64,000 nucleotides of DNA from Ascidiella aspersa. Lineage: Eukaryota. The notes beneath the pieces are model-generated. The model was not told the origin of the DNA. It ran no database searches and saw only the letters and a program-made list of their open reading frames with translations. The translations under genes and the position numbers were made by a program. The stretch spans positions 7,254,001 to 7,318,000 of the forward strand of contig OZ004609.1 of the NCBI GenBank assembly GCA_963924565.1, written 5' to 3'. This document shows positions 1 to 49,053 of this stretch, in pieces. Each line of letters opens with the position of its first letter. The first letter of the stretch is position 1.

Positions 1-3000
1 CGAGCAAGAACAAATAAATCAAAGTTTACACAAAAAACTTTATTTCATATTAAAACTTAAAGAAGCTGACTGCATGGTTTGATAGTAATTCATTTTATAG
101 CATCCTAGATTTTAAACATACAAGCTAGGCTTATATTATAAAATATAAGCAATGAAATAGTAAAAACACTGGCCGGGTCATTAGAATGACTGCAGATACT
201 ACAGCCCAAAGTAAAGCCTTTAATGCCCAACCGTCAGGAATAAACTTTTACTTACTCCGCTTGAATGTTAGAAGCTGAAGGTATGTTGAGCTTTGAAACG
301 ACGGCTTCCAATTTTTTGCAAAAAATATTGCTGTTGCAGTAATCGAGTGACGGAGCACAGGCAAAGGTTGTCTGAGGAAAAGAAATCCCGTGTCCTACAA
401 GCAGATAAAAAAGAATTTTCAAAATCGTAAATATTGTTAACAGACCAGTACAATAAGACCTCTAATTTACAAAATGGAATCTATTGAGTTTGAGATAAAT
501 AAAAAAAAATATTTTTTTAGCACCAAAACAAAGATTCACGGGAATGTTTCCTAATAAACACTTCCGAAATGTATTTTTGCTTAACAAGGATAAATAATTT
601 ATCCTGTTTTAGTTGTGGACATTACGTCGGTAGGAAGTATGGTTCAAACAGATAAATTTACACACCCCCCCCTTTTTTTTTCACCGTTGCTAAACAGAGG
701 CCTTAACGCTGTTGGATGATATTTTTTCCGCTAATCATGACACTACTGGGCACCGACCAAAAAACACAACACAAGGCACCCGAAATAAATGCAACAGTTA
801 CCTTTAACTATTCCGGTGACATCGATGTCGTTAGTCAGACAAGCTGTCGTGCAAGAACTGCTGCTGTATGTGTCGTGCGCAAAGTTAATAGCGCCTGTGT
901 GGCAACGCAAATATTGGCCTTTCCTGGGCGTTTCGACCAAGTCGGGTCGCATGGTGCTGGCCACTGCTACACTGACCGTGGACGGGACGGTAGACATGGC
1001 GATGGACATAACTGTGGACAGGGCATTGGGCAGAACAGTTTCATTTCCCGAGCCGTAGTTTAGTTTGTAAACTTCCTTGGGCTTGTTGCAGCGGTATGTG
1101 GAGCAGCAGGTTGGCTGGCAGTTCCTGAAAGCAGTTAAGCGATTAGAAAAACTTGCCTCGATGTTAAATTTCACCAAGTACTTAAGTCGTTTTACTTCAC
1201 AAAAAATTTTCGGTCACAACATCAGCTGAAAGGGTCAAATAGTAGTTTTCCAAGTAATGCGAACTCAGTTTATGCCTTTTTATTGTATGAAAGCAACATG
1301 ACCATTTAAAGTACAGTTTGAGACGGTAAGAAAAGTCAATTTTGCCCTTAAAAACAGTAAACCTGCCCTAGTATATACGATTGGCCTATAGTTAAAACCT
1401 ATAGTTGAAATCAGTAATAATACCAAGCAACGATATATAGCTTCTACATGGAACGTTATACGTACCAGATTTCGAAAAGTTAAAGGCTTTTCGAGTATCA
1501 CTTTCCCGTAACACTTATACTTAATGCGACACTAGCAACTTTTTTGTGTTAGTAAAAATCATTCAAAAGTATATAATACTTAATTTTCACATTGCAAAAT
1601 AAAAAATCAACCCAAAAGTGGGTGCCAGTATATAAAGAAATGGACAACAATCAAGTAAACAAGCAATCTTCACGTTTATTTATTTACCTTATTTTAATAT
1701 CGTAACCTCTTACGGCGTTTTGGGCGATGTTGGTTACTCTTCTGCATGTTGCCAGTTTATCAACGCAGGAAAACCAATGGCTGGTGCAGCTAAAACTGGA
1801 CTGTAGGAAATTGATCGTCATACCTGAATTAAATATCGTCACGTCTAACTTTGCATTGCAATTTCATTAAATTATTTGATGCGAAGGGAAATTAAGTAGC
1901 AATCTTTTTTAAACAGTTGACAAAAAAAATATTTTTCACCGTTAAGGAAAGGCCTTTAGTATAAAAAAATAAGTTTTTTTTAAGTAGGGTTTTTTAGTTT
2001 CTTGAAAGTTACAACACTGCCTAACAAAAGGGGGTCTTCGAAAACATATTTTTATAGCTTAATTACCTTTTACTGTGGTGTACGCCATGTAATCGATTCT
2101 CATACATGAGGTTGTGCAAGTGGTGTCGGCGACACTATCAACAGCGTAGTTTTTTACCCCGGTCTGGCATGTAACAGCCATTGCGCAGGCAAGCATTGAA
2201 AACAGGCAGGCGAAGCTCAGCCATTTCTTCATCGTGCAACTTTTGATAGCAAGCTTAACGCTACCAGGAATGCAAATAAATTATTGAGCACTAAAAAGGC
2301 AAAAGATTCTTTATTTTAACCTTTGCCGCAGTTTCTAATGACTTAAAATGATGCGGCGTAACTTAGTTATACGTCGTTTGTTTACTCAGGTTAAATGTTT
2401 GTATTGCGAAATAAAAAAGCGAGTTTAATATTTGCCTCGATTCTGACTGTAACACAACAATAGAAGACAACCCTTCTGCGTGTTACGTTTTATGCGAAAA
2501 ATGTTGATGAAAAGCAAAAAATTAAGTGGATTTTCAGCCTGGGGCGTATAACGAAAGATTATTTCTGCCATTAGACGTGCTGCGGTGAGAGATCTCAATC
2601 GTATACGAATAGACAAAGCCTTGTCCCAAAACTCGTCAGTTCTTCGCCAAGACAAAGTTACGTCAATGCGCGTGACGCTAAAACGTCACGGTACTTTTTG
2701 AACTTTGCAATGGACGCAATTTCACCAAATCTGAGTTAAAGTTTTATTTTGCATACTTTTTCATACCCGGTTAATGATTTTTTAGTAAACACTGGTGTTT
2801 TGTGAAATATGGTCAGGTGTTTCGCAAAAAAAATTATCAATTTGACTTTTTTTTTATTAAACAATGGTAAAAATCACTGAAAAAAGCGACTTGTTTTATG
2901 AAATTAATTATCCACCATCACCAATGTGAATGCTCCGTAATTATTTTCTATATTTGTTGTTTGATATGATACAATTGTGATTGCCTGATTAGGCTACATT

Positions 3001-4630
3001 TCAATCCAAATATTAATTCATCTAAACAGGTCAAGATATAGCACTAAGAAAGACTGAATGTGAATAAAATGTCATTGTGTTGTATATGTATTTTTCTCTA
3101 TGCATCTAAATAGATTTTGCTTGGTGTTTGGCAAAATTAAGTTTAATGTGTAAACCATTTCGTGTCTCAAAATTGGTTAGAAAACTCTGCACTATGGAGC
3201 ACAGAAAACAATTGAGACGCGAAGCTAGCCTGTTGTCCAATCTCATCACCAAGTATTTTTGTAACGAGGAACCGAAATTGCCTCCGGTGCATAACGCCAC
3301 GTTCCTACTGTGACGTGCTTACTTACCTAAGTGAACGAGAAGCACATTTATAGCAAAGGAATTGCAAACCGGTCACGCTTTACAGAATTCAGAATGTTGC
3401 TCGTTAAATTGAACGAATCTAAAAAACACAAACAATGCTTTAAGCGTGTACAATTATTTTAAAAACAAATTAGGCAAAACTTGCATCACAAAATTGAACA
3501 AACGGCATTTATGCATATTATTTAAAGGTCAGTTGGCAAAACTCTTTGAAACATGAAACTTTTTGCAATTTAGGTATAGTGAATAATATCCATTCATTCA
3601 GTAGGCCAAATAAATGACTGCCAATTCAGTTCTTTTGAATATGACCAACCGCCTCTTTTTTTTTTTAAAAATAGGTCTTTGTAGTCAAGTGGTTTACCGA
3701 GAAAAAAACTGTCATTTGATAACATTGTTTAATCATAGGGGATCACCCATGTTTTTTTAAATAAAGCCTCATAAAATGCCTCTAAATTTAAAAAAAGTAT
3801 TCTATTTTTTGTGCACGAGGCTGTTAGCTGCCACCGTGAAGTGACAACAAGGTCACAATGGCTGCGCAAATATTCAAATTTAAGATTATTTTTGGGCATA
3901 ATGGTTAAAGGTTTCAGTTAGACGTATAAAAGGAATAGCATTTTGAACAATTGGAACATCTCTTTATTCATTTATTGAGATGTTCAAAATGCTATAAACT
4001 TTTATTTCAGCTTTGTGATTTATTTTATTGCGTGAAACGCGAACTAATGAAAGAGAGTATTAAAGTTTTTTTGCAAAAGATCAGCAAAACACACGAACCA
4101 GTAAATAAACAAAGCAGCTGTTTTCGATAAGGAGAAAAATTTTGATGAAAAGCAAAAAATTAAGTGGATTTTCAGCCTGGGGCGTATAACGATAGATTAT
4201 TTCTGCCATTAGACGTGCTGCGGTGAGAGATCTCAATCGTATACGAATAGACAAAGCCTTGTCCCAAAACTCGTCAGTCTGGTTTGCACATGGAATACGA
4301 CTAATTCGCGAACGACTTTAGTCGAACTAGAAACGTTAGAATAAAAAGTAAGTTTTAATTTCATGCGATGTTCACCTCAAGTCAACTACTTTAAATTTTC
4401 TTGGAAACATGTTTAAAACTTTTGTGTACACATTTTAACATGTTGACTCGAAAGCAAATTCACGTCACTTTTTGATGTGCGTTCATTTTTTTCATCAAAT
4501 TTTGATGTACTTTCATTTGTGAAATAACTTATGTCAAAGTCAAGGGTTTGAAAAAATAGCCAAGTCACCAGTAGCGCAACTTAAGTCATTATTAAGGCAA
4601 GTCATCTCCAAGTCAAATCACTAATATTGC
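1..4630. repeat. Segmental duplication unit (paralog A plus upstream region), homologous to ~16745-21925
   Basis: Colinear matches 1-470 to 16745-17215, exons of A to exons of B, and 3190-4630 to 20165-21925. A third partial copy lies at ~9720-10430. Confidence 0.85.
256..2232 (-). CDS. Two-domain Ly6/uPAR (three-finger)-like protein, paralog A; last exon lies beyond the left window edge
   Basis: GT-AG exons 2067-2232, 1688-1823, 802-1124 and 256-394 with compatible phases 1/2/1/2. Translation: MKKWLSFACLFSMLACAMA|VTCQTGVKNYAVDSVADTTCTTSCMRIDYMAYTTVKGMTINFLQSSFSCTSHWFSCVDKLATCRRVTNIAQNAVRGYDIKIRNCQPTCCSTYRCN, then an S/T-rich linker, then RCHTGAINF...CTTACLTND...FACAPSLDYCNSNIFC. Signal peptide and CCxxxxCN motif present; exon sizes match paralogs B and C. 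Confidence 0.85.
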
Positions 4631-7142: not shown

Positions 7143-8270
7143 TGACAACACAAATTTTTCATATTCTTGACAATGTAACCTTTCCATACTTCTAACAACA
7201 CAAAGTTGCCATAATTCTGACAACGTAACCTTGCCATATTCCTAACAACACAAAGTTGCCATAATTCTGACAACGTAACCTTGCCATATTCCTGAAAACA
7301 CAAAGTTGCCATATTCCTAACAACACAAAGTTGACATATTTCTGACAACGTAACCTTGCCATATCCCTTGCAACACAAAGTTGCCATATTCCTGACAACA
7401 CAAAGTTGCCATATTCCTGACAACGTAACCTTGCCATATTCCTGACAACACAAAGTTGCCATATTCCCGACAACACAAAGTTGCCATATTCCTGACAACG
7501 TAACCTTGCCATATTCCTAACAACACAAAGTTGCCATAATTCTGACAATGTAACCTTGCTATATCCCTTGCAACACAAAGTTACCATATTCCTGACAACA
7601 CAAAGTTGCCATATTCCTGACAACGTAACCTTGCCATATTCCTGACAACACAAAGTTGCCATATTCCTAACAACACAAAGTTGACATATTTCTGACTACG
7701 TAACCTTGCCATATCCCTTGCAACACAAAGTTGCCATATTCCTGACAACACAAAGTTGCCATATTCCTGACAACGTAACCTTGCCATATTCCTGACAACA
7801 CAAAGTTGCCATATTCCTAACAAAACAAAGTTGCTATATTCCTGAAAACACAAAGTTGTCATATTCCTAACAACACAAAGTTGACATATTTCTGACTACG
7901 TAACCTTGCCATATCCCTTGCAACACAAAGTTACCATATTCCTGACAACACAAATTTGCCATATTCCTGACAACGTAACCTTGCCATATTCCTGACAACA
8001 CAAAGTTGCCATATTCCTGACAACACAAAGTTGCCATATTCCTGACAACGGATGCTTGCCATATTGCTGACAATGCAACTTTACCATATTCCTGACAACA
8101 CAAAGTTGCCATATTCCTGACAACGTAATTTTGCCATATTCCTGACAACACAAAGTTGCCATATTCCTGTCAACACAAAGTTGCCATACTACTGACAACG
8201 AAAGCTTGCCATATTACTGAAAACGAAAGCTTGCCATATTCCTGACAACGCAACCTTACCATATTCCGAC
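7143..8270. repeat. 25-bp minisatellite, ~45 units, two main variants
   Basis: Units TTGCCATATTCCTGACAACACAAAG and TTGCCATATTCCTGACAACGTAACC, degenerate at both ends. Confidence 0.95.
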
Positions 8271-9490: not shown

Positions 9491-10527
9491 TGAAAATTTC
9501 AACTTAGTGCTTTTCTGCAACAAGCAATATTAACTTCGCGGACCGCACACTGATTTTCATAATCAACGTCCATGATTTCGAGCGAACTAATTCGCAAATA
9601 TGCAGCTGAAATCCAAGCTATTCCCCCAAAGGGCGAAACAAATGTTTTTTTTGGTAAGCCCATTATTAAAAAAAACGTTACGCATTAAAATAAGACACTT
9701 AAAAGAGAATCGCATATATATATCGTTGTAATAAGCCGCCTGTTTTTTTAAAACGGGTCTTTGTAGTCCAGTGGTTCACCGAAAAAAATCTGTCATTTGG
9801 TAACATTGTTTAATCATAGGGAATCACCCATTTTTTTTAATAAAGCCTTATAAAATGCCTCGAAATTAAAAAAAAGTATTCTATTTTTTTGTGTATGAGG
9901 CAGTTAGCTGTGACCGTGAAGTGGCAACAAGATCAAAATGGCTGCGCAAATATTCAAATTTAAGATTATTTTCGGGCATAATGGTTAAAGGTTTCAGTTA
10001 GACGTATAAAAGGAATAGCATTTTGAACGATTCAACATCTCTTTATTTATTTATTTATTTATTGAGATGTTCAAAACGCTATAAACTTTTATTTTAGCTT
10101 TGTGATTTATTTCATTGCGTGAAACGCGAACTAATGGAAGAGAGTAGAAAGGTTGTTTTTGCAAAAGATCAGCAAAAAAAACGAACCTGTAAATGAACAA
10201 AGCAGCAGTTTGCGATAAGCAGAAAAACTTTGATGAAAAGCTAAAAATAAGTGGATTTTCACCCTGGGGCGTATAACGAAAGATTATTTCTGCCATAAGA
10301 CGCGCTGCGGTGAGAGATCTCAATCGTATACGAATAGATTACAACTTTTGTGCACCCATTTTAATTTGTTGACTGTAATTCTTCTTTGTGACACTTTTGG
10401 ATCTATTTTAATGTGTGTAATGTTGTATCGTCATGATTGATTTGTGAGTTGTGATAGGGTGCGAGCTGGAGCGAACTTTCGACGTAAAAGTGTGAAAAGA
10501 TGACTGGCAGTTTCAACAAAAATATCA

Positions 10528-14815: not shown

Positions 14816-15855
14816 TTTAGGACCAATTTGTTTTTTGCAGAATATCTGCAATATAATAACCAGCATCCGTTCATCAATGTGTCCCAATAAGATAATTAGG
14901 GTTTCTACAGAGTTCACACAGCATAGGACCGAATAAATGCTTCAACTTTACTGCAAATGATTCTGAAAGAACTTATGTGCAATCAAGCGACTGTTTATAA
15001 CTAATATGTTTGGGACTTGAGTCATTTCAAAATAGATTTCCACAACGCGGTTGCATATATGAGTAGAAAAATGTTTATTAATTTTAATAATGTTCATACT
15101 TACATACTATTTAATTTTATAAACTTATCAATGGCCTATTGTATACAGTGTTATGTACTGTGTTCGACGTTTATATATTATAAAATCAGTCATGTTTATA
15201 TATCAGTAAAACAGTTTGCGTTTATATAAATTATGAAATCTGTAGACCTATATGTTGATACTTCAGTAAAAGTGTTTATGTTACCCAACCACACAATTCC
15301 CACCACACTTTCCCACATATATCCAAGCTGCGTGGTAGATAAATAGGTTTTTTGCGGTCTGCAACGCGTGACAAGAATAAATCAGAAATGTTAAAATATA
15401 GATGTTGGCTAACTTTGGTTACAAATGCTTTAAAAAAATATTCTGCTTATTTAGCCAGGTCTTTATTAATTGGTTCTACAATTGCGGGTTCATTCGCCCT
15501 TACGATTTCAATATCTACTCGATATTCAAAGCTGCGTGCAAAAATATTTACGTGGGAATTTGATTAGAATACCGTACTAAATGCAATCATCCAAAGGAAT
15601 GTTATTTCGCCCTACTGTATTTCGTGGTACAGCGGTTGGTTGAACCGTAATGAGCCCACTTGTATTAGATTTCGAGACTTATCTTTATGATGAAACACGT
15701 CAGTTATAATGCAAGACCAAAAGTCCACGTTTATCGTATAACATTTTACCCTAAGAAGAAATCGTAAACCTGGAAGGCCTTTCATGACCTTTGCATAATA
15801 TGTACATGGTTTATTAAGCGCGGGATAAAATGTACACAGTACAGCCAACTGAGCC

Positions 15856-15945
15856 TTACGAAAGAAAGTTCAACGTGAAAACAGTTAAGATAGAAACCGA
15901 ACACAAGACGATCCATTGTCAAGCAGTTCGTTGAGCTCCGGCTTT
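15856..15945 (-). pseudogene. Orphaned GPI-signal coding relic of paralog B
   Basis: Reads KAGAQRTA*QWIVLCSVSILTVFTLNFLS* and aligns with the paralog C tail ESGAERSASQWVGLCAISILTAFKLYFQS*. TGA at 15919-15921 stands where C has TCA (Ser). Confidence 0.85.
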
Positions 15946-15957
15946 AACTGTGTAACT

Positions 15958-16302
15958 CAGGATTAGGCAATTATTTTAACAAAAGGCAGCATAAGCGACA
16001 AAAAGTGCATTTGCGGGTCAGATAAAGGGGACTGGAAATACACATAATATGAAGTGTGATTCCTTTGAAAATATACTGAAAATATTTTAGTTTTGAAAGC
16101 TAATAAGAGTGGGAATAAGTGATGATGCCTTGCATGTGAAATTGATTCACTAAAATGTTCTAAAATTACCAAAAAATGTGTTTTCTATGAAAAATGTTTT
16201 ATAAAATGTTAGCCAAGGGCCGAATTTAAATTGCTTTGCGGTCTAAATTAAATTGCTTTGGGGTCGAGCTTGGCTCGCAGGGACTTTTTCTGCCATTTGA
16301 TG
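15958..16302. mobile_element. Decayed MITE-like insertion inside the last exon of paralog B
   Basis: ~345 bp absent from the homologous exon of paralogs C and D. Starts CAGGATTAGGCAA (hAT-MITE-like end); the opposite end and the flanking duplication are degenerate. Confidence 0.55.
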
Positions 16303-19228
16303 TTGTATATTCTGGAAGGATCCCGAGCGTTGCATTTCGAAGAGTAACAACACTTTGTTTTGCAGTTTCTGTAACAAACATTCGTTGTTGTTAGTCGACT
16401 TCCATTGGATTATAAAATCCTATCCGTACATTACCGTCGAATATTTTTCTAAAAAACACTTGAATTTTAAAGTCTTACAAAATATTATTGTTAAAATTAT
16501 TTCGTAGAAAAACGCAGGACATGGTAGATTGGCATTTTATTTTGTACCAAGCTCAATGGACCATTCCACACGCAAATACAATGATCAAGGAACAAACCCT
16601 ATATTTAAACACTCTGTTTATTGATTTGAACAGAACGTAATATGTTCAAAGCTAAGATTTAGACATTTTCGAATTTATTTAGTCGTAATGCGATCTATTT
16701 GAGCAAACCACCACAGGCGATATGAGTCGCTTAACGCTGTTAGGCGAGCAAGCATAAATAAATCAAAGTTTACACAACAAAACTTTGTTGCATATCAAAA
16801 CTTAAAGAAGCTGAAGTCAGGGTTTGTAAGTAATTCTTTTTTTAAACGTGCAATTTGAGTTAGGCTTATAGTATCATAGAAACAATGAAATATCAAAAAC
16901 ACTGGCTGGATCATTAGAATGACTGCAGATACTACAGCCTAAAGTAAAGCCTTTAATGCCCAACCGTCAGCAATAAACTTTTGCTTACTCGGCTTGAATG
17001 CTAGTAGCTGAAGGTATGTCAAGCTTTGAAACGGCGGGTTTCAATTGTTTGCAAATAAGATTGTTGTTGCAGTAATCGAGATGCGGAGCACAGGAAAAGG
17101 TTGTCTGAGGAAACGAGAACCCTGTTCCTACAACGCGATAAATAAATGTTGCAATTTGAAAAATCGTTAATATTGGTAACAGACGAAAAACGTAACAAGT
17201 ACAAAAATATCTTTAATTCAGAAAAAACAAAATCTGTTGGGTTAAGAGGTATTTCTTTTGTAAGTAAAATATTTCTTCTTTTTTTTTTAGTTCAAAACTT
17301 TGTTTAGAACTGAGAAAAAGTTTCGCGGAAATGTTGCCTAATAAACAAAAAAATTAAAGCATTTATTGGTAAAAAAGATAAAGCATTTATTATTTATTTA
17401 GGCCAGTTTTGGATAGAAAAATTAGGTCTGAAGGAATTAATTTTCAAACCTCTATAGTATATGTTTCAACAGATATAACGCAAAACGAAGACAGACAAAA
17501 TGTAACCCAACCATTTTACACTCCTGCTAAAACAGCAGCTTTAACGCTGATGGCAGTTATTTTTCTGCTAACCAGGTCAATACTGGATACCGACCAAAAC
17601 TACCACACGAGTAACCTGAAAAAAGTATCATGGGTACCTTTTATCACTGCGGTGACATCGATCTCGTTGGTCAGGCAAGCTGTCGTGCAAGAACTGCTGC
17701 TGCTGTATGAGTCGTAGGCAACGTTAATAGTGCCTGTGTGACAGCGCAAATATCGGCCTTTCGTCGGCGTTTCGATCAATTTGGGTCGCGTGGTGGTGGA
17801 CACTGCTTTGCTGACCGTGAACGGGACAGTAGTCATGGCAATGGACATGACCGTGGACGAAACATTGGGCAACACGTTGTCATTTTGCGAGCCGTAGCTT
17901 AGCTTGTATTCACCCTCAGGCTTGTTGCAGCTGTTTGTGGAACAGCAGGTTGCCTTGCAGTCCCTGGAAGCAGTTAAGCGTTTCGATAAACATGCTCCGC
18001 AATAAAACTGTACCAAATACTCAAGTCGTGTTACTACACAAGAAACAACCAGTGTCAACAGTAGCTAACCTGGTCAAATAGCCGTTTGTTAAGTAACGCA
18101 CTGTCATTTTATGTCAAAAACATGGCTAACTAAAATTGAACAATACTTTCCAATAACACTTATTCTGAATACGATACTAGCAACTGCTTGGTGTGTATCA
18201 GAACATTTTTAAGACTTACGCTTTTTTAGTTTTATTTGTTTGTGGGGGTGGGGGGGTGGGGCAAAAGTGCCCTTTTCATGAAAAGCTTCCTCTCTTGTTT
18301 TACTTAAAAATAGAAAAATTAGAAAATTCAAGTAACTTTTACTAGTCCACAGGGCCGACAGGAATAGGGCTGGAGCTACAAAAAATCCAAACAAATTTGT
18401 CAAATGACATGGTTGACATTTGTTAAAACATTTTTGGTACCATTTTAAGCCAATCTATAAGGCGTGGCCGCAAAAAAAATTCCGGGCGAGTACCCCGGTA
18501 CCCCCCAATATTTCGGCTGGCTACGCTCGCCTGCAGTCTATATTGCCCTTACCAAAAAAGTTATCCCCCTTGCCCTAAAATCGCTCCAGCGTCCCAGGTT
18601 TTATATTCATGTATGTCACTTTAAAGTTGCACAAGTAACATAACCAATCATGTTATTAATGAGCATTTAAAGTTGTGCGCTTGGGAATTTAGCTTATTGG
18701 TAATTTAAAGTCGCAATGAAAGACTGAGATCGTATCTTTAGATCAAACCTATAACATGATAATCCTGTAACATTGCTAAAAATTCGACCTAGACATGGGT
18801 GGACCAGTATTTGAGAACCAACGAGCAAATAAACAAGAAAACTTTAGGTCGAGATGCTCACTCTATTTTGATAGCGAAACCTCCCGCATTGTTTTCGATG
18901 GCGTTGGTGAGTTGCTTGCATGTGGCCTCCTTATCAATGCAGGATAATCCAGCGCTGGTGCAGCTAAAACTGGATTGTTCAAAACTGATCGGCATACCTG
19001 AAATAAAAATCGTCACGAGAGGTTCTTCGAAAACATATATGTATAGCTTAATTAAGTCTTACCCTTAGCTATGCTGTGCACCATGTAATCGATTCTTATA
19101 CATGAGGTTGTGCAATTAGTGTCGGTCACAGTATCAACAGCGTAGTTTTTTACCCCGCTCTGGCATGTAACAGCCATTGCGCAGGCAATCAGTGAAAACA
19201 AGCAGACGGAGCTCAACAAGACCTTCAT
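16248..19228 (-). CDS. Two-domain Ly6/uPAR-like protein, paralog B; ~295 aa, lacks GPI tail (basic C-terminus derived from an insertion)
   Basis: Exons 19063-19228, 18862-18997, 17638-17963, 16989-17127 and 16248-16368 (888 nt, open). MKVLLSSVCLFSLIACAMAVTCQSG...DCKATCCSTNSCN...NCKTKCCYSSKCNARDPSRIYNIKWQKKSLRAKLDPKAI*. All 20 domain cysteines are retained. Confidence 0.82.
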
Positions 19229-22200
19229 CGTGCAATTTTTGATTTTAGGTTTAACGCCACCAATAATGCAAATAAAGTATTGAGCATCTAAAATTCGTGG
19301 CGCGTTTATAAGCGCCGTCCATTTTTTTCCTTTTTGTGAAATACATAACTCTCTTTGTGAAATATTCAGCGTACTAGCTCATAACGATTTATTTTAAACT
19401 TTTTTACCTCCGCAATTTCGAAAAGTCCCGACTTAAAGTTTTATTTTGTGTACTTTTCCATAGCTTCTTGTGAAATATCTAGCCGTATAGCTAATCCGAT
19501 CATAGGCGACGCATTACTATTACACAAACGAAATTTTGTGGTAAATTTAACGCGAAAGGAATCTACCATTCATGCATTTTGGTGTTGAGAACACATGAAA
19601 GAGGCACACGACTCATAAAAGCTTAACAACCAACGTTTTATGCTTTTTTAAACATTCGCGCAAAAGTTGTTGTTTTCGGTGTTCGAATGTTTGTTCTACG
19701 AAAAGTTTTTCGCCCTTTTTGCATGTTCATTACTTCGGTTTATTTAGGTATAAAAGAGCTTATTTTGCAATGTTCTTTTTCTACGTTAACGTCAAGCCTA
19801 ATCTATATAAAAGAATAGAAATGACAGAAACATTTGGCTTCGTTCAAAAATGTTTATGATTTAAGTTTAAAAGCAGCTCAAATTAAATTTCTTCGGAAAT
19901 ACATTTTCAAAGCCATTTAGAACCAAATAAAAACAAGACGTAGATACAAATTAACCACCAACTTTGTTTTTGAAAAAAGCATAAATAAAAACGAATTTGG
20001 TCTCTAACTGAATGCGTCCGCCATTAGGGACATTAATCGATTAAGTGTAAAACGTGTTAAAATAAATTCTTTTAAAATGAAGCCGTCAACTTTTGTTTGG
20101 TGTTATGCAAAATTATTTAATGGATAAAATATCCCATGTTTCAACAATGGCTGCAAAACACTGCACTACAGAGAGTGGAAAACAATTGAGACGCGAAGCA
20201 AGCCTGTTGTCTAATCTTATCACCAAGAATTTTTAAAACGAGGAACTGAAATTGCCTCCGGTGTATAACGCCTCGTTTTAATTCTGTGACGTGCTTTCAT
20301 ACCTAAGTGAACGAGCAGCCCATTTATAGCAAACTAAGCTGATCAAGCTTCACAGAATTTGTCTTCAGAATGTTGCTCATAAAATGGAACGAATCCAAAA
20401 AACACAAACGACGCTTTAAGCGTGTTTAATACGTTCAAAAACAAACTAGGCAAAAATTGCGCGTCACAAACTTGGATAAACGGCATTTATACATATTATT
20501 AAAACGCCAGCTTGCAAAACTCTTCAAAACATGCAAGTTGCTTTGCTATTTAGGTATAGTGAATGATATCCATTCATTTAGTTGGCCAAATAAACGACTG
20601 CCAATTAGGTTCTTTGAATGTGAGCATCGCTGTAATAAGCCGCCTCTTTTTATAAAAATACGAATCTTTGTGGTCAAGTGGATTACGAGAAAAACAACAG
20701 TCATTTGCTAATATTGTAATCGTTGGGACTCAATCAAGCTTTCAAAAACAGGCCGTATAAAATTATTGTTTGAAAAGTATCATTTTTTGTGCACGAGGCA
20801 GTTAGCTGTTTCCGTGAAGTGGTAAACCAAATAGGTTACTATGGCTGCACAAATCTTCAAATTTTAGATTCATCATAGGGGAAAATAGCCAAAGGTTTTA
20901 CTTAGACGTATAAAAGTAATAGCTAAGGCGAATATTTTTTTGACCTAAAAATTTAGAAATTTTGACCTAAAAAATTAAAATTTTGAGAAATTTTTACATA
21001 AAAATAATTTATTTTGACAAAATTTTGACCTGTTAGAAAAAAATTGATTTAAATAACATAGGCGTCGTTATTCACACGATTTTTTATAACGTATATTGGT
21101 CTAATGAAGATATAATACGGTTGAAAAGACTTGGCAAATTTTGACCTAACGTGTAAAAAAATTTTGACTTTTTTTGATAAATCAAAAAATATTCGCCATA
21201 GTAATAGTACAAACCATATAGAAATGCGCAGCATGTAGAACGCTGCGAACGCTGTTCATTCATTTATTGAGATGTTCAAAGCGATATGTACTTTAACATA
21301 AGTTTTGTGATTCATTTTATTTTGTGCAACGTAAAAGTAATGGAAGAGATTAGAAAAGTTGTTTTTGCAATAGAACAGCAAAATACACGAACCTGTTAAT
21401 GACCAAAGCAATTTGCGATAAGGAGAACAATGTTGGTGAAAAGCAAAAAATAAGTGGATTTTCAGCCTGGGGCGTAGAACGAAAGAATATTTCTGCCATA
21501 AGACGCGCTGTGCTGAGAGATCTTAATCGTATACGAATAGACAAAACTGATGTCCCAAAACTCGTCAGGCTGGTTTGCAAAATAGAATACGACTAATTCG
21601 CGAAGGACTTTAGTCGAACTAAAGACGTTAGTTTAAAAATGGTAAGTTTCAATTTCATGCGATGTTCACCTCAAGTCAACTGCTTTAAACTCTCTTGGAA
21701 ACATGTTTAAAACTTTTGTGTACACACTTTAATATGTTAACTCGAAAGCAACTCTGCGTCAATTTTTGTTGTACTTTCATTTTTTAAATCAAATTTTAAT
21801 GGAGTTTTATTTGTGAAATAACTTAAGTCAAAGTCAAGTCTGTGGAAAAATAGTCCAAGTTACCAGTTGCGCAAGTCAAGTCATTATTAGAACAAGTCAT
21901 CTCGAAGTCAAATCACTAATATCACGAACTAGAATCGTTGGTTAAAAAATGGTAAGTTTTAATTTCATGTTATGCTCTTCTCAAATCAACTCCTATAAAT
22001 TTTCTTAGAAACATGTTTACAACTTTTGTGCACCCATTTTAATTTGTTGACTGTAATTCTTCTTTGTGACACTTTTTGATCTATATTAATGTGTGTAATG
22101 TCGTATCGTTTAACGCATTCTTAACGACGACGTCACAAAGCTACGTCATAACATAGCGTCATAAATAAATAAATCTTGCGTTTATTGGATTTAAATTGGC

Positions 22201-41411: not shown

Positions 41412-42975
41412 GTCGATCAGTTTTTTTCGACATGACAACCATTGCTTGTGCTCGGTATCTCGATAACTGCAATAGCACTGTTTTTTGCAAAAGTTTGGAA
41501 AACGGCATTTCAGACCTCAACATACCATCAGCTTGTGTGGATCTTAACGTAGAGTTAGTGAAAGTCGTTTGGTAATGGTTGGTCACTAAATGCTTTAGAC
41601 TGTAGCATTTACAGTAATTTTATCATTTCGGCCAATATTTTTGTTATGCCATTATCTCGACTTAGGCCTAGCGTGAATTGCTAGGTATTTGGTTTAAAAA
41701 ATTTCTGGAAATATTATAAAAAGTCTGAAGTTATGCTCCAACATACATCTAAAGATACTTTTCAAATTAGTTCGCCGCGATAAAATAATAATTTGCCTGT
41801 TGGTTTTTATGGGTTATCACGTAAGCCAGTGGTTCCCAACCTTTTTGTTGTCGCGACCCCTTTTCCAGTTTTCGAAACTTACGCGACCCTTCAAATTTGA
41901 ATTGATACATTGACTGAAGTAAATTAGAGTCACATTTGAATTGGTAAAACGATCACATTTCTCAACCGAGTGTTGTAAATTTGGTTAAACTATACGGATT
42001 AACGAAAAAAGTATACTAGCTTATAAAGGTACGATTTAAGCCTGCAATCGCCGCATTAAGATTTTTATTCGATAACACTATTTGACTAAACTTTAGTTTA
42101 ATCGTTAATGTGATGTAATAATCGTTATTGTGATGTAATAAATATGGTTCTTGTCACAACGGTTAATAGTTTTTGCTTGTGATTTCTGTCTTTAATGAGT
42201 CTGAAGATAAACATCGTACAATATAAACAATTGCAACTTGAATTATAGGTTTAAGTTTTCACTTAAAGTTCTTTAGTAAACTTAAGTGTGTACTGTTCCA
42301 AAAAAGGTTGACAAGCACTGCCGTAGGCTACCTATGATTGATACCGGGAACTCAATAGCAAGCCTACATTGTTAAAATAATATTCTCGCACTTTCTTCCT
42401 GGCAGCTCACTGTTTGAACATTCACTATCATTACAAGTTAATTTTTTAAGCTAATTAATTCGCATTCTAGCACTAGTGATTTGTATTTTTGATCGTCGTC
42501 TTCGCGACCCCCAGAGAACATGCAAACCCCCACCCGGGGGTCGCGACCTCCAGGTTGAAAACCACTGACGTAAGCAATATAACAAAAAAAAACTAATTTT
42601 TTTCTGTAAAAAATAAAAAAAAAGTTACTTTTGCTTATTTCAAAACTTTATCCTAAAATCTTTGTAAAAGCAAATAAACATAACTAGCTACTAACATAAC
42701 GTGTACCATTTTTAAATGAGCTGACAAAGCTGTCTGACAAACATCCTTACTTCCTTGTCACCAACGCACTTAAAATTCTCCTGTAACAGCCGAAAACCAA
42801 TTTTTTGCAGAAATTGTGAAACAAAATGTTGCTACTCATCGGTTTGTAACACTCCGGATTTCTCGAGAATCCACAAAAAAAAACGTGGAGCGGAGCTGAA
42901 CGAACTGCTTCACAGTGGGTTGGCTTATGTGCGATTTCTATTGGAACTGCATTCAAGTTGTATTTTTGGTCATAA
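41412..42975 (+). pseudogene. 5'-truncated duplicate of paralog C (paralog D; exons 4-5 only, frameshifted before the GPI signal)
   Basis: Exon 41412-41553 (GRSVFFDMTTIACARYLDNCNSTVFCKSLENGISDLNIPSACVDLNVE) and exon from 42811 (NCETKCCYSSVCN). The GPI tail SGAERTASQWVGLCAISIGTAFKLYFWS* is out of frame after the A9 run at 42875-42883. Homology to C starts at ~41375; I found no exons 1-3 upstream. Confidence 0.8.
41827..42567. mobile_element. hAT-type MITE inserted in the intron of paralog D
   Basis: TIR CAGTGGTTCCCAACCT / AGGTTGAAAACCACTG; perfect 8-bp TSD ACGTAAGC (41819-41826, 42568-42575). The empty site is visible in paralog C at ~48775-48785. Confidence 0.9.
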
Positions 42976-46367: not shown

Positions 46368-49053
46368 ATGAAGGTTTGGTTGAGTTTTTTCTGCTTGTTC
46401 TCATTGCTCGCCTGCGCAATGGCTGTTATTTGCAATTTGGGCAAAAAAAACTACCTTAGGCAGAGTGTTGTACTTTTTTGGTGCCCAGACTCATGCTTGA
46501 GAGCCGACTACATGATGCACAGCACAATGCTCGGTAAGGCTTTGACTTACCGTATGTAGATGGCGCTATTTTGCTGTTCTTTCGCAGTGTTATAAGTGCA
46601 AAGAGGGAACTTTTGCTACTAAAGCGTTAAAATGTTTACATCTTATAACTCTAAAAAAAATTAAGTGGGATAGTCTCGAGCCTTGTTAAGACAAGCCTAT
46701 TTCTTCCTTTAGGGGAAATAAATCCTGTTTCTTATGTTCACAATCAAGCTACCTTATTTCGTTACAAATTACGTTCCAACTTAGTTTGCTTTCAATGTTA
46801 TAAAATTAGGAAAAATCCATTACAAACTTCGACCTGAAACAATTATAATACCAATCGTGTCAATGTTTATTTCAGGTAAATCTACATATTTTCGACAATC
46901 CGATTTTAGGTGCGGCAGTCGTAGTTCATGCATTGATAAGGTGGCCGCATGCAGCAAAATCATCAACAACATCGTAAGTTTGTCATCATTCATCAGAACG
47001 ACAGCAAGGTAAGCTGTTTACAAAAAACTAGATGTTGCTTCCCTAGCCCCCGCTGAAAACATTAGACAACAAAACAACTATTACAATTACCTTCAGAAAA
47101 AGGTCACATCTCCAAATATAGAAAGAATTTAAAAAAATAAATACGTTATTTTTTTTAAGAGACTGGACACTGGCCTACGAAATTTGATAACAATGGAGAC
47201 TCTGAAACCATGTGTTACGTAGCTTAGTGCATTGACATAAAATGACCCTGACGCCCAGTTTGAACATCAAACAATGGTGGCTAATTTCCCCTGGTCAGAT
47301 AAGATGAAAATTTTTTGGATTATATATCGACCCTATATGACACAACTAAGTTGAGAAACATTTAAACGTTTTAGATATTTCACTTTTTTGCTTAAAAAAG
47401 GGATACTATGATGAAAAATATCTTTTGTAAGCAAATCAGATGCCGATGAAATCACTTTTGAAAGCAATAATGACTCGTTTGTCATTGATTCTAGCTAGTC
47501 CATTTGTAGACAGGGTCATCTATGGTAAAATCCGGGGCAAAGTTTTCTTTGGCATGTTGTTGTTATTCAATAATGATTTCTATGCAATCAAATTCTTCCA
47601 TAGGTCGATTTGTAAGTCTCTTAATACAACTCTTAGTGTAAGATTACTACGATCAATGAAATTACTCTTTCCTATTACCTAAAGTTGGTTTATGTTATTT
47701 CAGTTCCGTTTGTTGTGTCATTACAGTACCGTTACACACTGAACGAAAATCCTGGAAGGACTATCGTAATCTATATATTAATTCCGGGTGGGGTGCCGTA
47801 AGCCATAAAGTTTCGGCACCACTACAGTATAAAATCGGAGCGAAAACGCTCAACCGCTTTTCTCTTTGCTAAACGCTCAACCGCTTTCAGTGACTGTATT
47901 GCGACCTGTTGCTCAACAAACGGTTGTAATTTACCCGAGGGAGAATACACGGTCAGCAGCAACCCATCAAGAACCACCGTCCATTATTGGCTTATAAATC
48001 CGCCCACCGTCCAGTCCACCACCCAGTCCACCTCCAGCACCAGCATAGCAGTAACCAGCAACGAAACGCCGGTAATAGGCCGACTCTCGAGATGCCACAA
48101 AGGCACGCTAAGCGTCCACCAGCAGTCGTTTACGACCATTCCTTGCACGACCGCTTGCCTGACCAACGAGGTCAACGTCACCGGGAAAGTTGAAGGTAAT
48201 CATTCGCATGGCTGCGGACGACATTTAAAACAGTGGTTAAAGTTAGACGACACGGTTCGAAAAATATTTTTTATCGTTCTAGTGAGAAAATTATTCTGTT
48301 TTCACCCCTGGTTTAAAACAACCCGATCAAATCAAGTTCGTTTTGTAAATTAAAGATGTTGCTCAATTATTGGTATTTTTGCGATTCGAATGTGAAACGT
48401 TTCCTTATTTTGTTTAAGGGCGGTCAGTGGTTTTCGACATGACAACATTTGCCTGTGCTCGGTCTCTCGATTACTGCAATAGCACTCTTTCTTGCAAAAC
48501 TTTGGAAAACGGCATTTCAGACCTCAACATACCATCAGCTTCGGACCTTAATGTAAAGTAAGTGAAAGGGCTTTATGCTGTAGTATCTACAGTAATGTTG
48601 GTAATCCGGCCAATATTTTTTTATTCCTGTCTCGACTTAGGCCTAACGCGAAAGGAAAACTTGTAAAAGTCTAAAGTTATGCTTCAAACATAGCCTACAT
48701 CTAAAGATAGGCTACTTTTCAAATTAATTTGCCGCGATAAAACAATAATTTGCCGGTTGGTATTTATGGGTTATTACCTGAGCAATATAACAAACTAAAA
48801 CTAAATTTTTCACATAAAAAAATAAATATTTTTGTTCAAAACTTTAGCACTCACTCATACACGCCGAATATAACAGCCCAATTTTTTCTACAGAAATTGC
48901 GAAACAAAATGTTGCCTCTCATCGGATTGTAACACTCGGGATCTGTCGAGAACTTACAATATGGAGAGCGGAGCTGAACGAAGTGCTTCACAGTGGGTTG
49001 GCTTATGTGCGATTTCTATTCTAACTGCATTCAAGTTGTATTTTCAGTCATAA
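46368..49053 (+). CDS. Two-domain Ly6/uPAR-like GPI-anchored protein, paralog C; ~300 aa, intact
   Basis: Exons 46368-46533, 46876-47008, 47891-48195, 48419-48557 and 48894-49053 (903 nt, open). MKVWLSFFCLFSLLACAMAVICNLG...DCIATCCSTNGCN, T/S/P linker, RCHKG...NCETKCCLSSDCN, then ESGA (small residues, omega-like) and hydrophobic tail WVGLCAISILTAFKLYFQS*. Confidence 0.88.

What the first reader, a model, noticed from the sequence alone, without database searches (positions are those of the whole stretch)
1688..1823. Signature of diversifying selection in domain 1 (exon 2 of A versus B)
By hand count, exon 2 of A and B differs at ~38 of 136 nt and 19 of 45 residues, with only 5 synonymous changes among the conserved codons. 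In contrast, the first ~75 nt of intron 4 (181-255 versus 16914-16988) differ at only ~3 positions. A and C share 17 of 20 N-terminal (signal) residues but only ~15 of 35 mature exon-1 residues. A conserved leader and cysteine scaffold with variable loops is the established pattern for toxins and immune or gamete recognition proteins.
Basis: partly seen in the sequence, partly recalled or inferred. Interest (0 to 1): 0.72.

Follow-up and report, generated by a model that had tools for sequence, protein, structure and literature searches.

The report
Fast-evolving exon in shuffled three-finger cluster
This exon belongs to a cluster of recombining gene copies that likely encode three-finger (Ly6/uPAR-like) surface or secreted proteins in what is probably a sea squirt; its amino acids change at or slightly above the neutral rate, which likely reflects modest diversifying selection, but the two-gene comparison first offered as evidence does not show it.

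Summary
Counting all synonymous changes gives A-versus-B dN/dS of 0.56-0.77. The intron control fails: introns 2 and 3 differ at 25-26%, and A is a mosaic that matches upstream paralogues G1/G2 through intron 3 (429 vs 39 sites) and B from intron 4 on (210 vs 26). The quoted 75 nt are the most similar window of intron 4, beside the switch. A weaker form of the idea survives. Across six intact paralogues exon 2 has dN/dS about 1.3-1.5, against 0.5-0.6 for its counterpart exon 4 (p about 0.01) and 0.34 for the signal peptide. Site tests for dN/dS above 1 are borderline (M8a vs M8 p 0.004-0.03; M1a vs M2a p 0.015-0.10). They lose significance when doublet mutations are fitted freely and would mostly not survive correction for eight segments. 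The genes are spliced and expressed, with two 10-cysteine domains, predicted Ly6/uPAR-like, either GPI-tailed or tail-less. Verdict: a real fast-evolving domain in a birth-and-death cluster; diversifying selection likely but not shown.

The parts
2067..2232 (-). Gene A exon 1: signal peptide and first part of domain 1 (three mature cysteines); phase-1 intron follows
   Evidence: joint to exon 2 in 22 RNA reads
1688..1823 (-). Gene A exon 2, the finding: middle of domain 1, three invariant cysteines, predicted helix at codons 22-36; family dN/dS about 1.3-1.5
1125..1687 (-). Gene A intron 2, the matched neutral yardstick: 26% different from B, 5.5-6.7% from G1/G2
802..1124 (-). Gene A exon 3: end of domain 1 (C-x3-CC-x4-CN), Ser/Thr linker, start of domain 2
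256..394 (-). Gene A exon 4: middle of domain 2, homologous to exon 2; mixed G-type and B-type letters (17 vs 9 sites)
1..255 (-). Gene A intron 4, continuing off the window (exon 5 at G000:C3:7253535-7253655); switch from G-like to B-like sequence at about 250-245
19063..19228 (-). Gene B exon 1
18862..18997 (-). Gene B exon 2
17638..17963 (-). Gene B exon 3
16989..17127 (-). Gene B exon 4
16248..16368 (-). Gene B exon 5, coding part: end of domain 2 with a hydrophilic tail supplied by an insert
15841..15954 (-). Displaced remnant of the GPI-type tail of B, holding a stop codon, downstream of an insert of about 350 nt
46368..46533 (+). Gene C exon 1
46876..47008 (+). Gene C exon 2
47891..48195 (+). 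Gene C exon 3
48419..48557 (+). Gene C exon 4
48894..49053 (+). Gene C exon 5 with a hydrophobic, predicted GPI-signal tail
41412..42972 (+). Partial copy D: exon-4-like and frameshifted exon-5-like pieces of a C-type gene (ends approximate)

Best explanation
Exon 2 encodes the middle of the first domain of a spliced, expressed, predicted three-finger (Ly6/uPAR-like) protein in a tandem cluster whose copies exchange segments, and its amino-acid changes run at or slightly above the neutral rate, likely because modest diversifying selection acts on a predicted outward binding surface. Shown: the gene structure, splicing, mosaic ancestry of A, and a higher dN/dS in exon 2 than in exon 4. Inferred: the fold, the GPI anchor, domain 1 lying farthest from the membrane, and a recognition role (microbe, allorecognition or gamete partner unknown). 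The likely working is that duplication and unequal exchange recombine first domains, second domains and anchored or released tails, while cysteines, signal peptide and domain 2 stay under purifying selection. The A-versus-B contrast is mostly age plus recombination: their 5' parts diverged long ago and their 3' parts were exchanged later.
For: Segment dN/dS from M0 fits: signal 0.34, mature exon 1 1.05, exon 2 1.50, domain-1 end 0.28, domain-2 start 0.50, exon 4 0.58, domain-2 end 0.31; the Ser/Thr linker gives 1.05-1.19. Exon 2 exceeds exon 4: 1.43 vs 0.60, p 0.009; with doublets fitted 1.23 vs 0.48, p 0.010; domain 1 vs domain 2 p 0.012-0.013. Exon 2, M8a vs M8: p 0.015, 0.004, 0.015 and 0.014 under four frequency settings, and p 0.02-0.03 with doublets fixed near the 3.8% share measured in non-coding DNA. 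Null simulations with doublets reached the observed statistic in 1 of 77 and 4 of 79 runs. A-like reads from three runs vary at 11 non-synonymous and 1 synonymous exon-2 sites. All six full genes keep an open frame and all 20 domain cysteines. Mosaic.
Against: A vs B alone is below 1. M1a vs M2a is weaker: p 0.015-0.058 without doublets, 0.07-0.10 at the non-coding doublet share and 0.26 with the share free. The whole of domain 1 gives p 0.05 (M8a/M8) and 0.15 (M1a/M2a), and 0.39 and 0.71 with free doublets; no site passes posterior 0.95 there. Domain 2 gives a similar nominal signal (M8a/M8 p 0.03), so the site test does not single out domain 1. The signal leans on the deep branches: without C the statistic is 3.0, and A, B, G1, G2 alone give dN/dS 0.91. 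Among A, G1 and G2, exon-2 replacement sites vary at about 9% against 7.3% for intron 2. The 11:1 ratio is not significant (p 0.16-0.22). Exon 2 was picked after the fact and eight segments were fitted. No ligand, tissue or whole-domain fold was obtained.
Confidence: 0.52

Rival explanations
1. Relaxed constraint: after duplication, domain 1 is held only at its cysteines and a few core residues and drifts neutrally elsewhere, in a redundant birth-and-death cluster.
For: The neutral model M1a fits exon 2 with about 14% invariant and 86% neutral codons. Recent replacement changes run at about the intron rate. Single-domain genes S1 and S2 lack domain 1 altogether, and several copies are broken (H, J1-J3, D, F lacking its 5' exons).
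Against: Domain 1 keeps 10 of 10 cysteines and its frame in six genes whose synonymous divergence reaches about 0.5-0.8. Its exon 2 evolves no slower than the unstructured linker, which is unexpected for a folded domain (inference). M8 beats M8a nominally.
Confidence: 0.35
2. Method artefact: doublet mutations, short conversion tracts inside exon 2 and alignment error on the long C and E branches inflate dN/dS, and the true value is below 1.
For: A free doublet rate improves M1a by more than adding a selected class does (lnL -572.2 vs -572.9). PMC6332903 (abstract) reports that M2a and M8 are very sensitive to such changes. The cluster is visibly mosaic.
Against: The non-coding doublet share is only 3.8% (9 adjacent pairs against 3.2 expected among 160 mismatches in 10,522 sites), far below the fitted 14-21%. 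The exon 2 versus exon 4 contrast persists with doublets fitted.
Confidence: 0.1
3. Secreted toxin family diversifying against prey or predator targets, like snake three-finger toxins.
For: Atlas look-alikes of exon 1 include three-finger toxin clusters, at lead-level scores of 0.79-0.84. A, B and F lack the hydrophobic tail.
Against: C, E, G1, G2 and H end in a hydrophobic GPI-type tail, and S1 and S2 carry the same kind of tail. The proteins have two or more domains with mucin-like linkers, and relatives elsewhere carry at least 6-8 repeats. The same Atlas list holds non-toxin Ly6 and receptor clusters.
Confidence: 0.03

Closest known systems
Ly6/uPAR (LU, three-finger) proteins with two domains and a GPI anchor, such as C4.4A/LYPD3 and Haldisin/LYPD5 (PMC6600238, passages)
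   Same: Signal peptide, two cysteine-rich domains ending in CC-x4-CN, a GPI-type tail or secreted form, clustered genes, and a phase-1 intron in mid-domain at the expected tip of loop 2.
   Different: By spacing, the 2-3 cysteine pair is missing and an extra pair flanks a predicted helix (inferred). Each domain has a second, phase-2 intron before its last four cysteines, the signal shares an exon with the domain start, and no sequence homologue was found in the protein searches.
Bouncer, a fish egg Ly6/uPAR protein for species-specific fertilisation (10.1101/354688, search listing and start of abstract)
   Same: A Ly6/uPAR-type surface protein acting in recognition, which is the kind of role proposed here.
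   Different: Bouncer is a single-domain protein (recalled); no gonad expression or binding is shown here.
Snake three-finger toxin gene clusters (PMC10421932, listing and start of abstract)
   Same: Tandem duplication, a conserved cysteine frame, and loss of the anchoring tail in some copies.
   Different: Most copies here keep the tail and have two domains; there is no venom context, and the selection signal is borderline.

Membership tests
Ly6/uPAR (LU) domain | 8-10 cysteines with the C-terminal CC-x4-CN signature | tested here: met
   10 cysteines per domain in all six full genes; signature in exons 3 and 5. The signature wording is recalled; the 10-cysteine consensus is from PMC6600238.
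Ly6/uPAR (LU) domain | Ancestral disulfide pattern 1-5, 2-3, 4-6, 7-8, 9-10 | tested here: inconclusive
   Spacing fits 1, 4, 5, 6, 7, 8, 9, 10 plus an extra pair, with 2-3 absent (inference). PMC6600238 says 2-3 loss and added pairs occur. Bonding was not determined.
Ly6/uPAR (LU) domain | Three-finger beta-sheet fold | tested here: inconclusive
   Only single exons were folded: exon 3 pLDDT 35, uninformative; exon 2 pLDDT 71 with helix 22-36. A whole spliced domain was not folded.
Ly6/uPAR (LU) domain | Match to a Pfam LU-clan profile or a solved LU structure | tested here: inconclusive
   0 of 9 single-exon translations hit an LU family. The only PDB hit of the exon-3 profile is uPAR at E 7.8, not significant. 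Atlas look-alikes for exons 3 and 1 are mostly LU-clan where a family is named, but score 0.84 or less. Whole domains were not scanned.
Ly6/uPAR (LU) domain | Phase-1 intron dividing the mature domain at the tip of loop 2 | tested here: met
   Introns 1 and 3 are phase 1 and lie between the third and fourth cysteines of each domain; criterion from PMC6600238. An extra phase-2 intron is a difference.
Ly6/uPAR (LU) domain | Signal peptide, with a GPI signal or secreted end | tested here: met
   Hydrophobic N-terminus in all exon 1 copies; C-terminal 15-residue hydropathy 1.8-2.0 in C, E, G1, G2, H and below -0.7 in A, B, F. No SignalP or PredGPI run was available.
Gene family under diversifying selection | dN/dS significantly above 1 at a class of sites, robust to model choice | tested here: inconclusive
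   Nominal p 0.004-0.06 without doublets; up to 0.10 with doublets at the non-coding share; 0.26 with doublets free.
Gene family under diversifying selection | Exon more divergent than its linked introns | tested here: not met
   A vs B: exon 2 28%, intron 2 26%, intron 3 25%. A vs G1: exon 2 6.6%, intron 2 6.7%.
Gene family under diversifying selection | Excess of replacement polymorphism or fixation in population data | tested here: inconclusive
   11 replacement to 1 silent site, p 0.16-0.22; alleles and paralogues cannot be told apart in short reads.
Three-finger toxin | Single secreted domain expressed in a venom or defensive gland, with toxic activity | tested here: not met
   Architecture not met: two or more domains, mostly GPI-tailed. 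Tissue and activity were not testable.

The most novel reading that the evidence does not exclude
An undescribed tunicate family of helix-bearing three-finger proteins acts as a combinatorial recognition system: exchange at exon 4/intron 4 mixes a positively selected outer domain with different inner domains and with anchored or released tails, so that individuals carry different repertoires for recognising microbes, non-self tissue or gametes.
Probability: 0.15. Interest if true: 0.72.

Novelty: new member of a known kind. Interest (0 to 1): 0.36.

Why it matters
Polymorphic, fast-evolving surface proteins in invertebrate chordates are candidates for immune, allorecognition or fertilisation specificity. 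This cluster supplies anchored, tail-less, one-domain and two-domain versions whose domain 1 differs among the sampled runs, so it can be tested directly. My three paper searches on the family listed no study of such a cluster in an ascidian, and the 2026 invertebrate survey PMC13719153 covered only the lancelet among chordates; these searches cover open-access papers only. The pattern itself, a duplicated cysteine-scaffold family with a fast outer domain, is well known. The case also shows why one intron window is an unsafe neutral control in a recombining cluster.

Tried and rejected
Pfam on 9 single-exon translations: no LU hit. Protein homologue searches with exon 3 (121 candidates) and with the middle-exon alignment (7,999 candidates): none passed. 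Profile search of 1.84 billion representatives: one hit, P0001, a 4,897-residue repeat protein with a different repeat whose most plausible Pfam hit is fn3; rejected as spurious. PDB sequence searches: uPAR at E 7.8 and a phospholipase A2 at E 0.77, neither significant. AlphaFold2 of exon 3: uninformative; no fold search was run on either fragment model. No intronless whole-domain copy was found in the four other loci fetched. The idea that 181-255 is a 3' UTR or hidden exon was rejected: exon 5 lies farther on and RNA depth is nil at 1-180. The run search listed no RNA holder; the RNA run used was an added raw-read run. Site posteriors from the exon-only fit were not used, because naive empirical Bayes on six sequences is unreliable. 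PMC7407461 mentions Ly6/uPAR only in its reference list. No earlier scan findings.

Full report
Observation. Exon 2 of A (1688-1823) and B (18862-18997) differ at 38 of 136 nt, and the first 75 nt of intron 4 at 3. 19 of 44 whole codons change the residue and 5 differ only synonymously; A and C share 17 of 20 and then 15 of 35 residues in exon 1. RNA run X9, of which about 6% was read, shows the joints of exons 1-2, 2-3 and 3-4 in 22, 20 and 25 reads, all on one strand, with no depth at 1-180. Those reads were accepted from 90% identity, so they include close paralogues.

What the genes are. The window lies at G000:C3:7,254,001-7,318,000 of a 309-Mb assembly. A cellulose-synthase-like match above the Pfam cut-off (E 4.9e-5) in an intron-bearing animal-type genome suggests a tunicate; that link is recalled knowledge and the taxon is an inference. 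I fetched about 130 kb upstream and found more copies: full genes G1, G2 and E; F, which has exons 3-5 and only a fragment of exon 1; H, with exon 2 split by about 11 kb; single-domain genes S1 and S2; and J1-J3, with a stop after the signal peptide. The six full genes (A, B, C, G1, G2, E) have open frames of 294-301 residues, two domains of 10 cysteines each and a Ser/Thr linker. C, E, G1, G2 and H end in a hydrophobic tail; A, B and F do not, because an insert of about 350 nt displaced it. Older relatives lie on C2, C6 and at C3 20.54-20.57 Mb, the last with at least 8 and 6 repeats. The cysteine spacing, CC-x4-CN end, mid-domain phase-1 intron and GPI-type tail fit the Ly6/uPAR (three-finger) description in PMC6600238 (passages), which also notes that the 2-3 bond is often lost, extra bonds occur and strand E can be a helix. 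Direct tests used single exons only and were inconclusive: no Pfam LU hit for 9 exons, uPAR at E 7.8, Atlas leads at 0.84 or less, and an uninformative exon-3 model. The exon-2 model has pLDDT 71 and a helix at codons 22-36. The fold is therefore predicted, not shown.

First, synonymous changes inside altered codons were not counted. Pathway counting gives 10.5 synonymous differences in 27.8 sites and 25.5 replacements in 104.3 sites, so dN/dS is 0.56, or 0.71 with transition weighting. ML gives 0.71-0.77, not different from 1. Second, the neutral control is unmatched. A and B differ at 26% in intron 2, 25% in intron 3, 13% in intron 4 and 3.6% in the 600 nt after exon 5. At sites that separate G1 from B, A follows G1 at 429 of 468 sites above position 395 and B at 210 of 236 sites below 255 (Fisher p 3e-106); exon 4 is mixed, 17 to 9, and the switch is at about 250-245. 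A's intron 3 is 4-5% from G1, G2, J1b and J2b, while its intron 4 is 12-13% from B and F and 24-25% from the G group. A is most simply the recombinant, with a B/F-like donor not identical to either. S1 shows a similar switch. One contig of run X2 spans 208-356 with a single difference, so the junction is unlikely to be an assembly error, although X2 is from the same study as the best-matching run. The quoted 75 nt are the most similar of all such windows in intron 4.

What survives. I wrote codon models in Python (GY94 and MG94 type; M0, M1a, M2a, M7, M8a, M8 with 8 beta classes; one IQ-TREE tree per segment; gapped columns and split codons dropped). These are not PAML runs. Exon 2 used the six full genes, with H left out. 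Exon 4 used ten genes; J1-J3 and D were left out as broken. M0 estimates are 0.34 (signal), 1.05 (mature exon 1), 1.50 (exon 2), 0.28, 0.50, 0.58 (exon 4) and 0.31, and 1.05-1.19 for the linker. Exon 2 exceeds exon 4 (p 0.009; 0.010 with doublets), and domain 1 exceeds domain 2 (p 0.012-0.013). For a class above 1 in exon 2, M8a vs M8 gives p 0.015, 0.004, 0.015 and 0.014, and M1a vs M2a 0.055, 0.015, 0.050, 0.023, 0.058 and 0.049, by frequency setting. Doublet mutations inflate these tests (PMC6332903, abstract; 10.1101/165969, listing). The doublet share in non-coding duplicated DNA is 3.8%, and near that level p is 0.02-0.03 and 0.07-0.10. With the share free, M1a vs M2a gives 0.26. Null simulations reached the observed statistic in 1 of 77 runs (low doublet share) and 4 of 79 runs (high share); neither simulation included conversion.

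Results against. The whole of domain 1 gives p 0.05 and 0.15, or 0.39 and 0.71 with free doublets, and domain 2 gives a similar nominal 0.03. Dropping C cuts the statistic to 3.0, dropping B raises it to 9.6, and A, B, G1, G2 alone give dN/dS 0.91. Among A, G1 and G2, 9 of about 100 replacement sites of exon 2 vary, against 41 of 563 intron-2 columns. Eight segments were fitted and exon 2 was chosen after inspection, so at most the smallest p value survives correction.

Other samples. Laying four runs on 1670-1840 listed 31 variant rows, 27 inside the exon, of which 26 in whole codons were classed. I assigned 12 to A-like reads and dropped 14: ten as B-type, three as from another paralogue, and one synonymous row from run X4, which has another organism label. 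The 12 are 11 replacements and 1 silent change (p 0.16-0.22 against neutrality). One dropped silent row (1801) has 8 of 23 reads in X8, more than the B-type and other-paralogue reads explain, so the ratio may be 11 to 2. At 1778, 16 of 16 X8 reads, 18 of 19 X9 reads and the X2 contig differ from A, and codon 23 shows three residues across samples. A's exon 2 as assembled is therefore not shared by these samples, though short reads cannot separate alleles from paralogues.

Mechanism and verdict. Shown: a spliced, expressed, recombining cluster in which exon 2 has lost most amino-acid constraint relative to its counterpart in domain 2. Inferred: a three-finger fold, GPI anchoring, and an outer binding domain under modest diversifying selection (0.52), against relaxed constraint (0.35), method artefact (0.10) or a toxin family (0.03). 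This is a new member of a familiar kind of system. Searches listed no paper on such an ascidian cluster, and PMC13719153 (part 1 of 4 and passages) analysed only the lancelet among chordates. No supplements were read.

Noticed in passing
window 15955-16302 (B); G000:C3:7253240-7253523 (A); 7226796-7227115 (F): An insert of about 350 nt inside exon 5 replaces the GPI-type tail with a hydrophilic one in A, B and F only, with a 5-nt overlap that may be a target-site duplication; these forms are predicted to be secreted.
   Followed up: partly
G000:C3:7193113-7194881 and 7237801-7239001: Single-domain genes S1 and S2 join the signal peptide directly to the start of domain 2 in one exon; an RNA loose end at window 907 (12 reads) fits such a transcript. 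S2 has a GC donor.
   Followed up: partly
G000:C3:7180429, 7204550, 7239712: J1-J3 share a stop codon a few residues after the signal peptide; J1 and J2 also have a fused exon 5/exon 3 without the linker.
   Followed up: no
G000:C3:7210087-7221190: Exon 2 of gene H is split by about 11 kb of inserted DNA; three reads of run X8 with a similar exon start continue differently, so the insertion may be polymorphic.
   Followed up: partly
G000:C3:20542601-20565570: Two divergently oriented relatives with at least 6 and 8 repeats of the same domain, joined by Thr-rich linkers.
   Followed up: partly
G000:C2:27794287-27800303, C2:30378158-30385125, C6:16295735-16322695: Further one- to three-domain relatives with the same exon layout.
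   Followed up: partly
G000:C3:7174181-7208301: A recent duplication of about 22 kb (G1-J1 and G2-J2, 95-98% identical); the 7 differences between G1 and G2 in domain 1 are all replacements (p 0.12-0.15).
   Followed up: yes
window 7143-8267: Tandem array with a period of about 25 nt.
   Followed up: no
window 2496-2640, 4134-4278, 10222-10338, 21425-21568: A short interspersed repeat of about 145 nt; reads of run X8 skip the copy at 2496-2640, so it is likely polymorphic.
   Followed up: no
G000:C5:19610700-19611167 (L037): Cellulose-synthase-like match, used only as a hint that the animal is a tunicate.
   Followed up: partly
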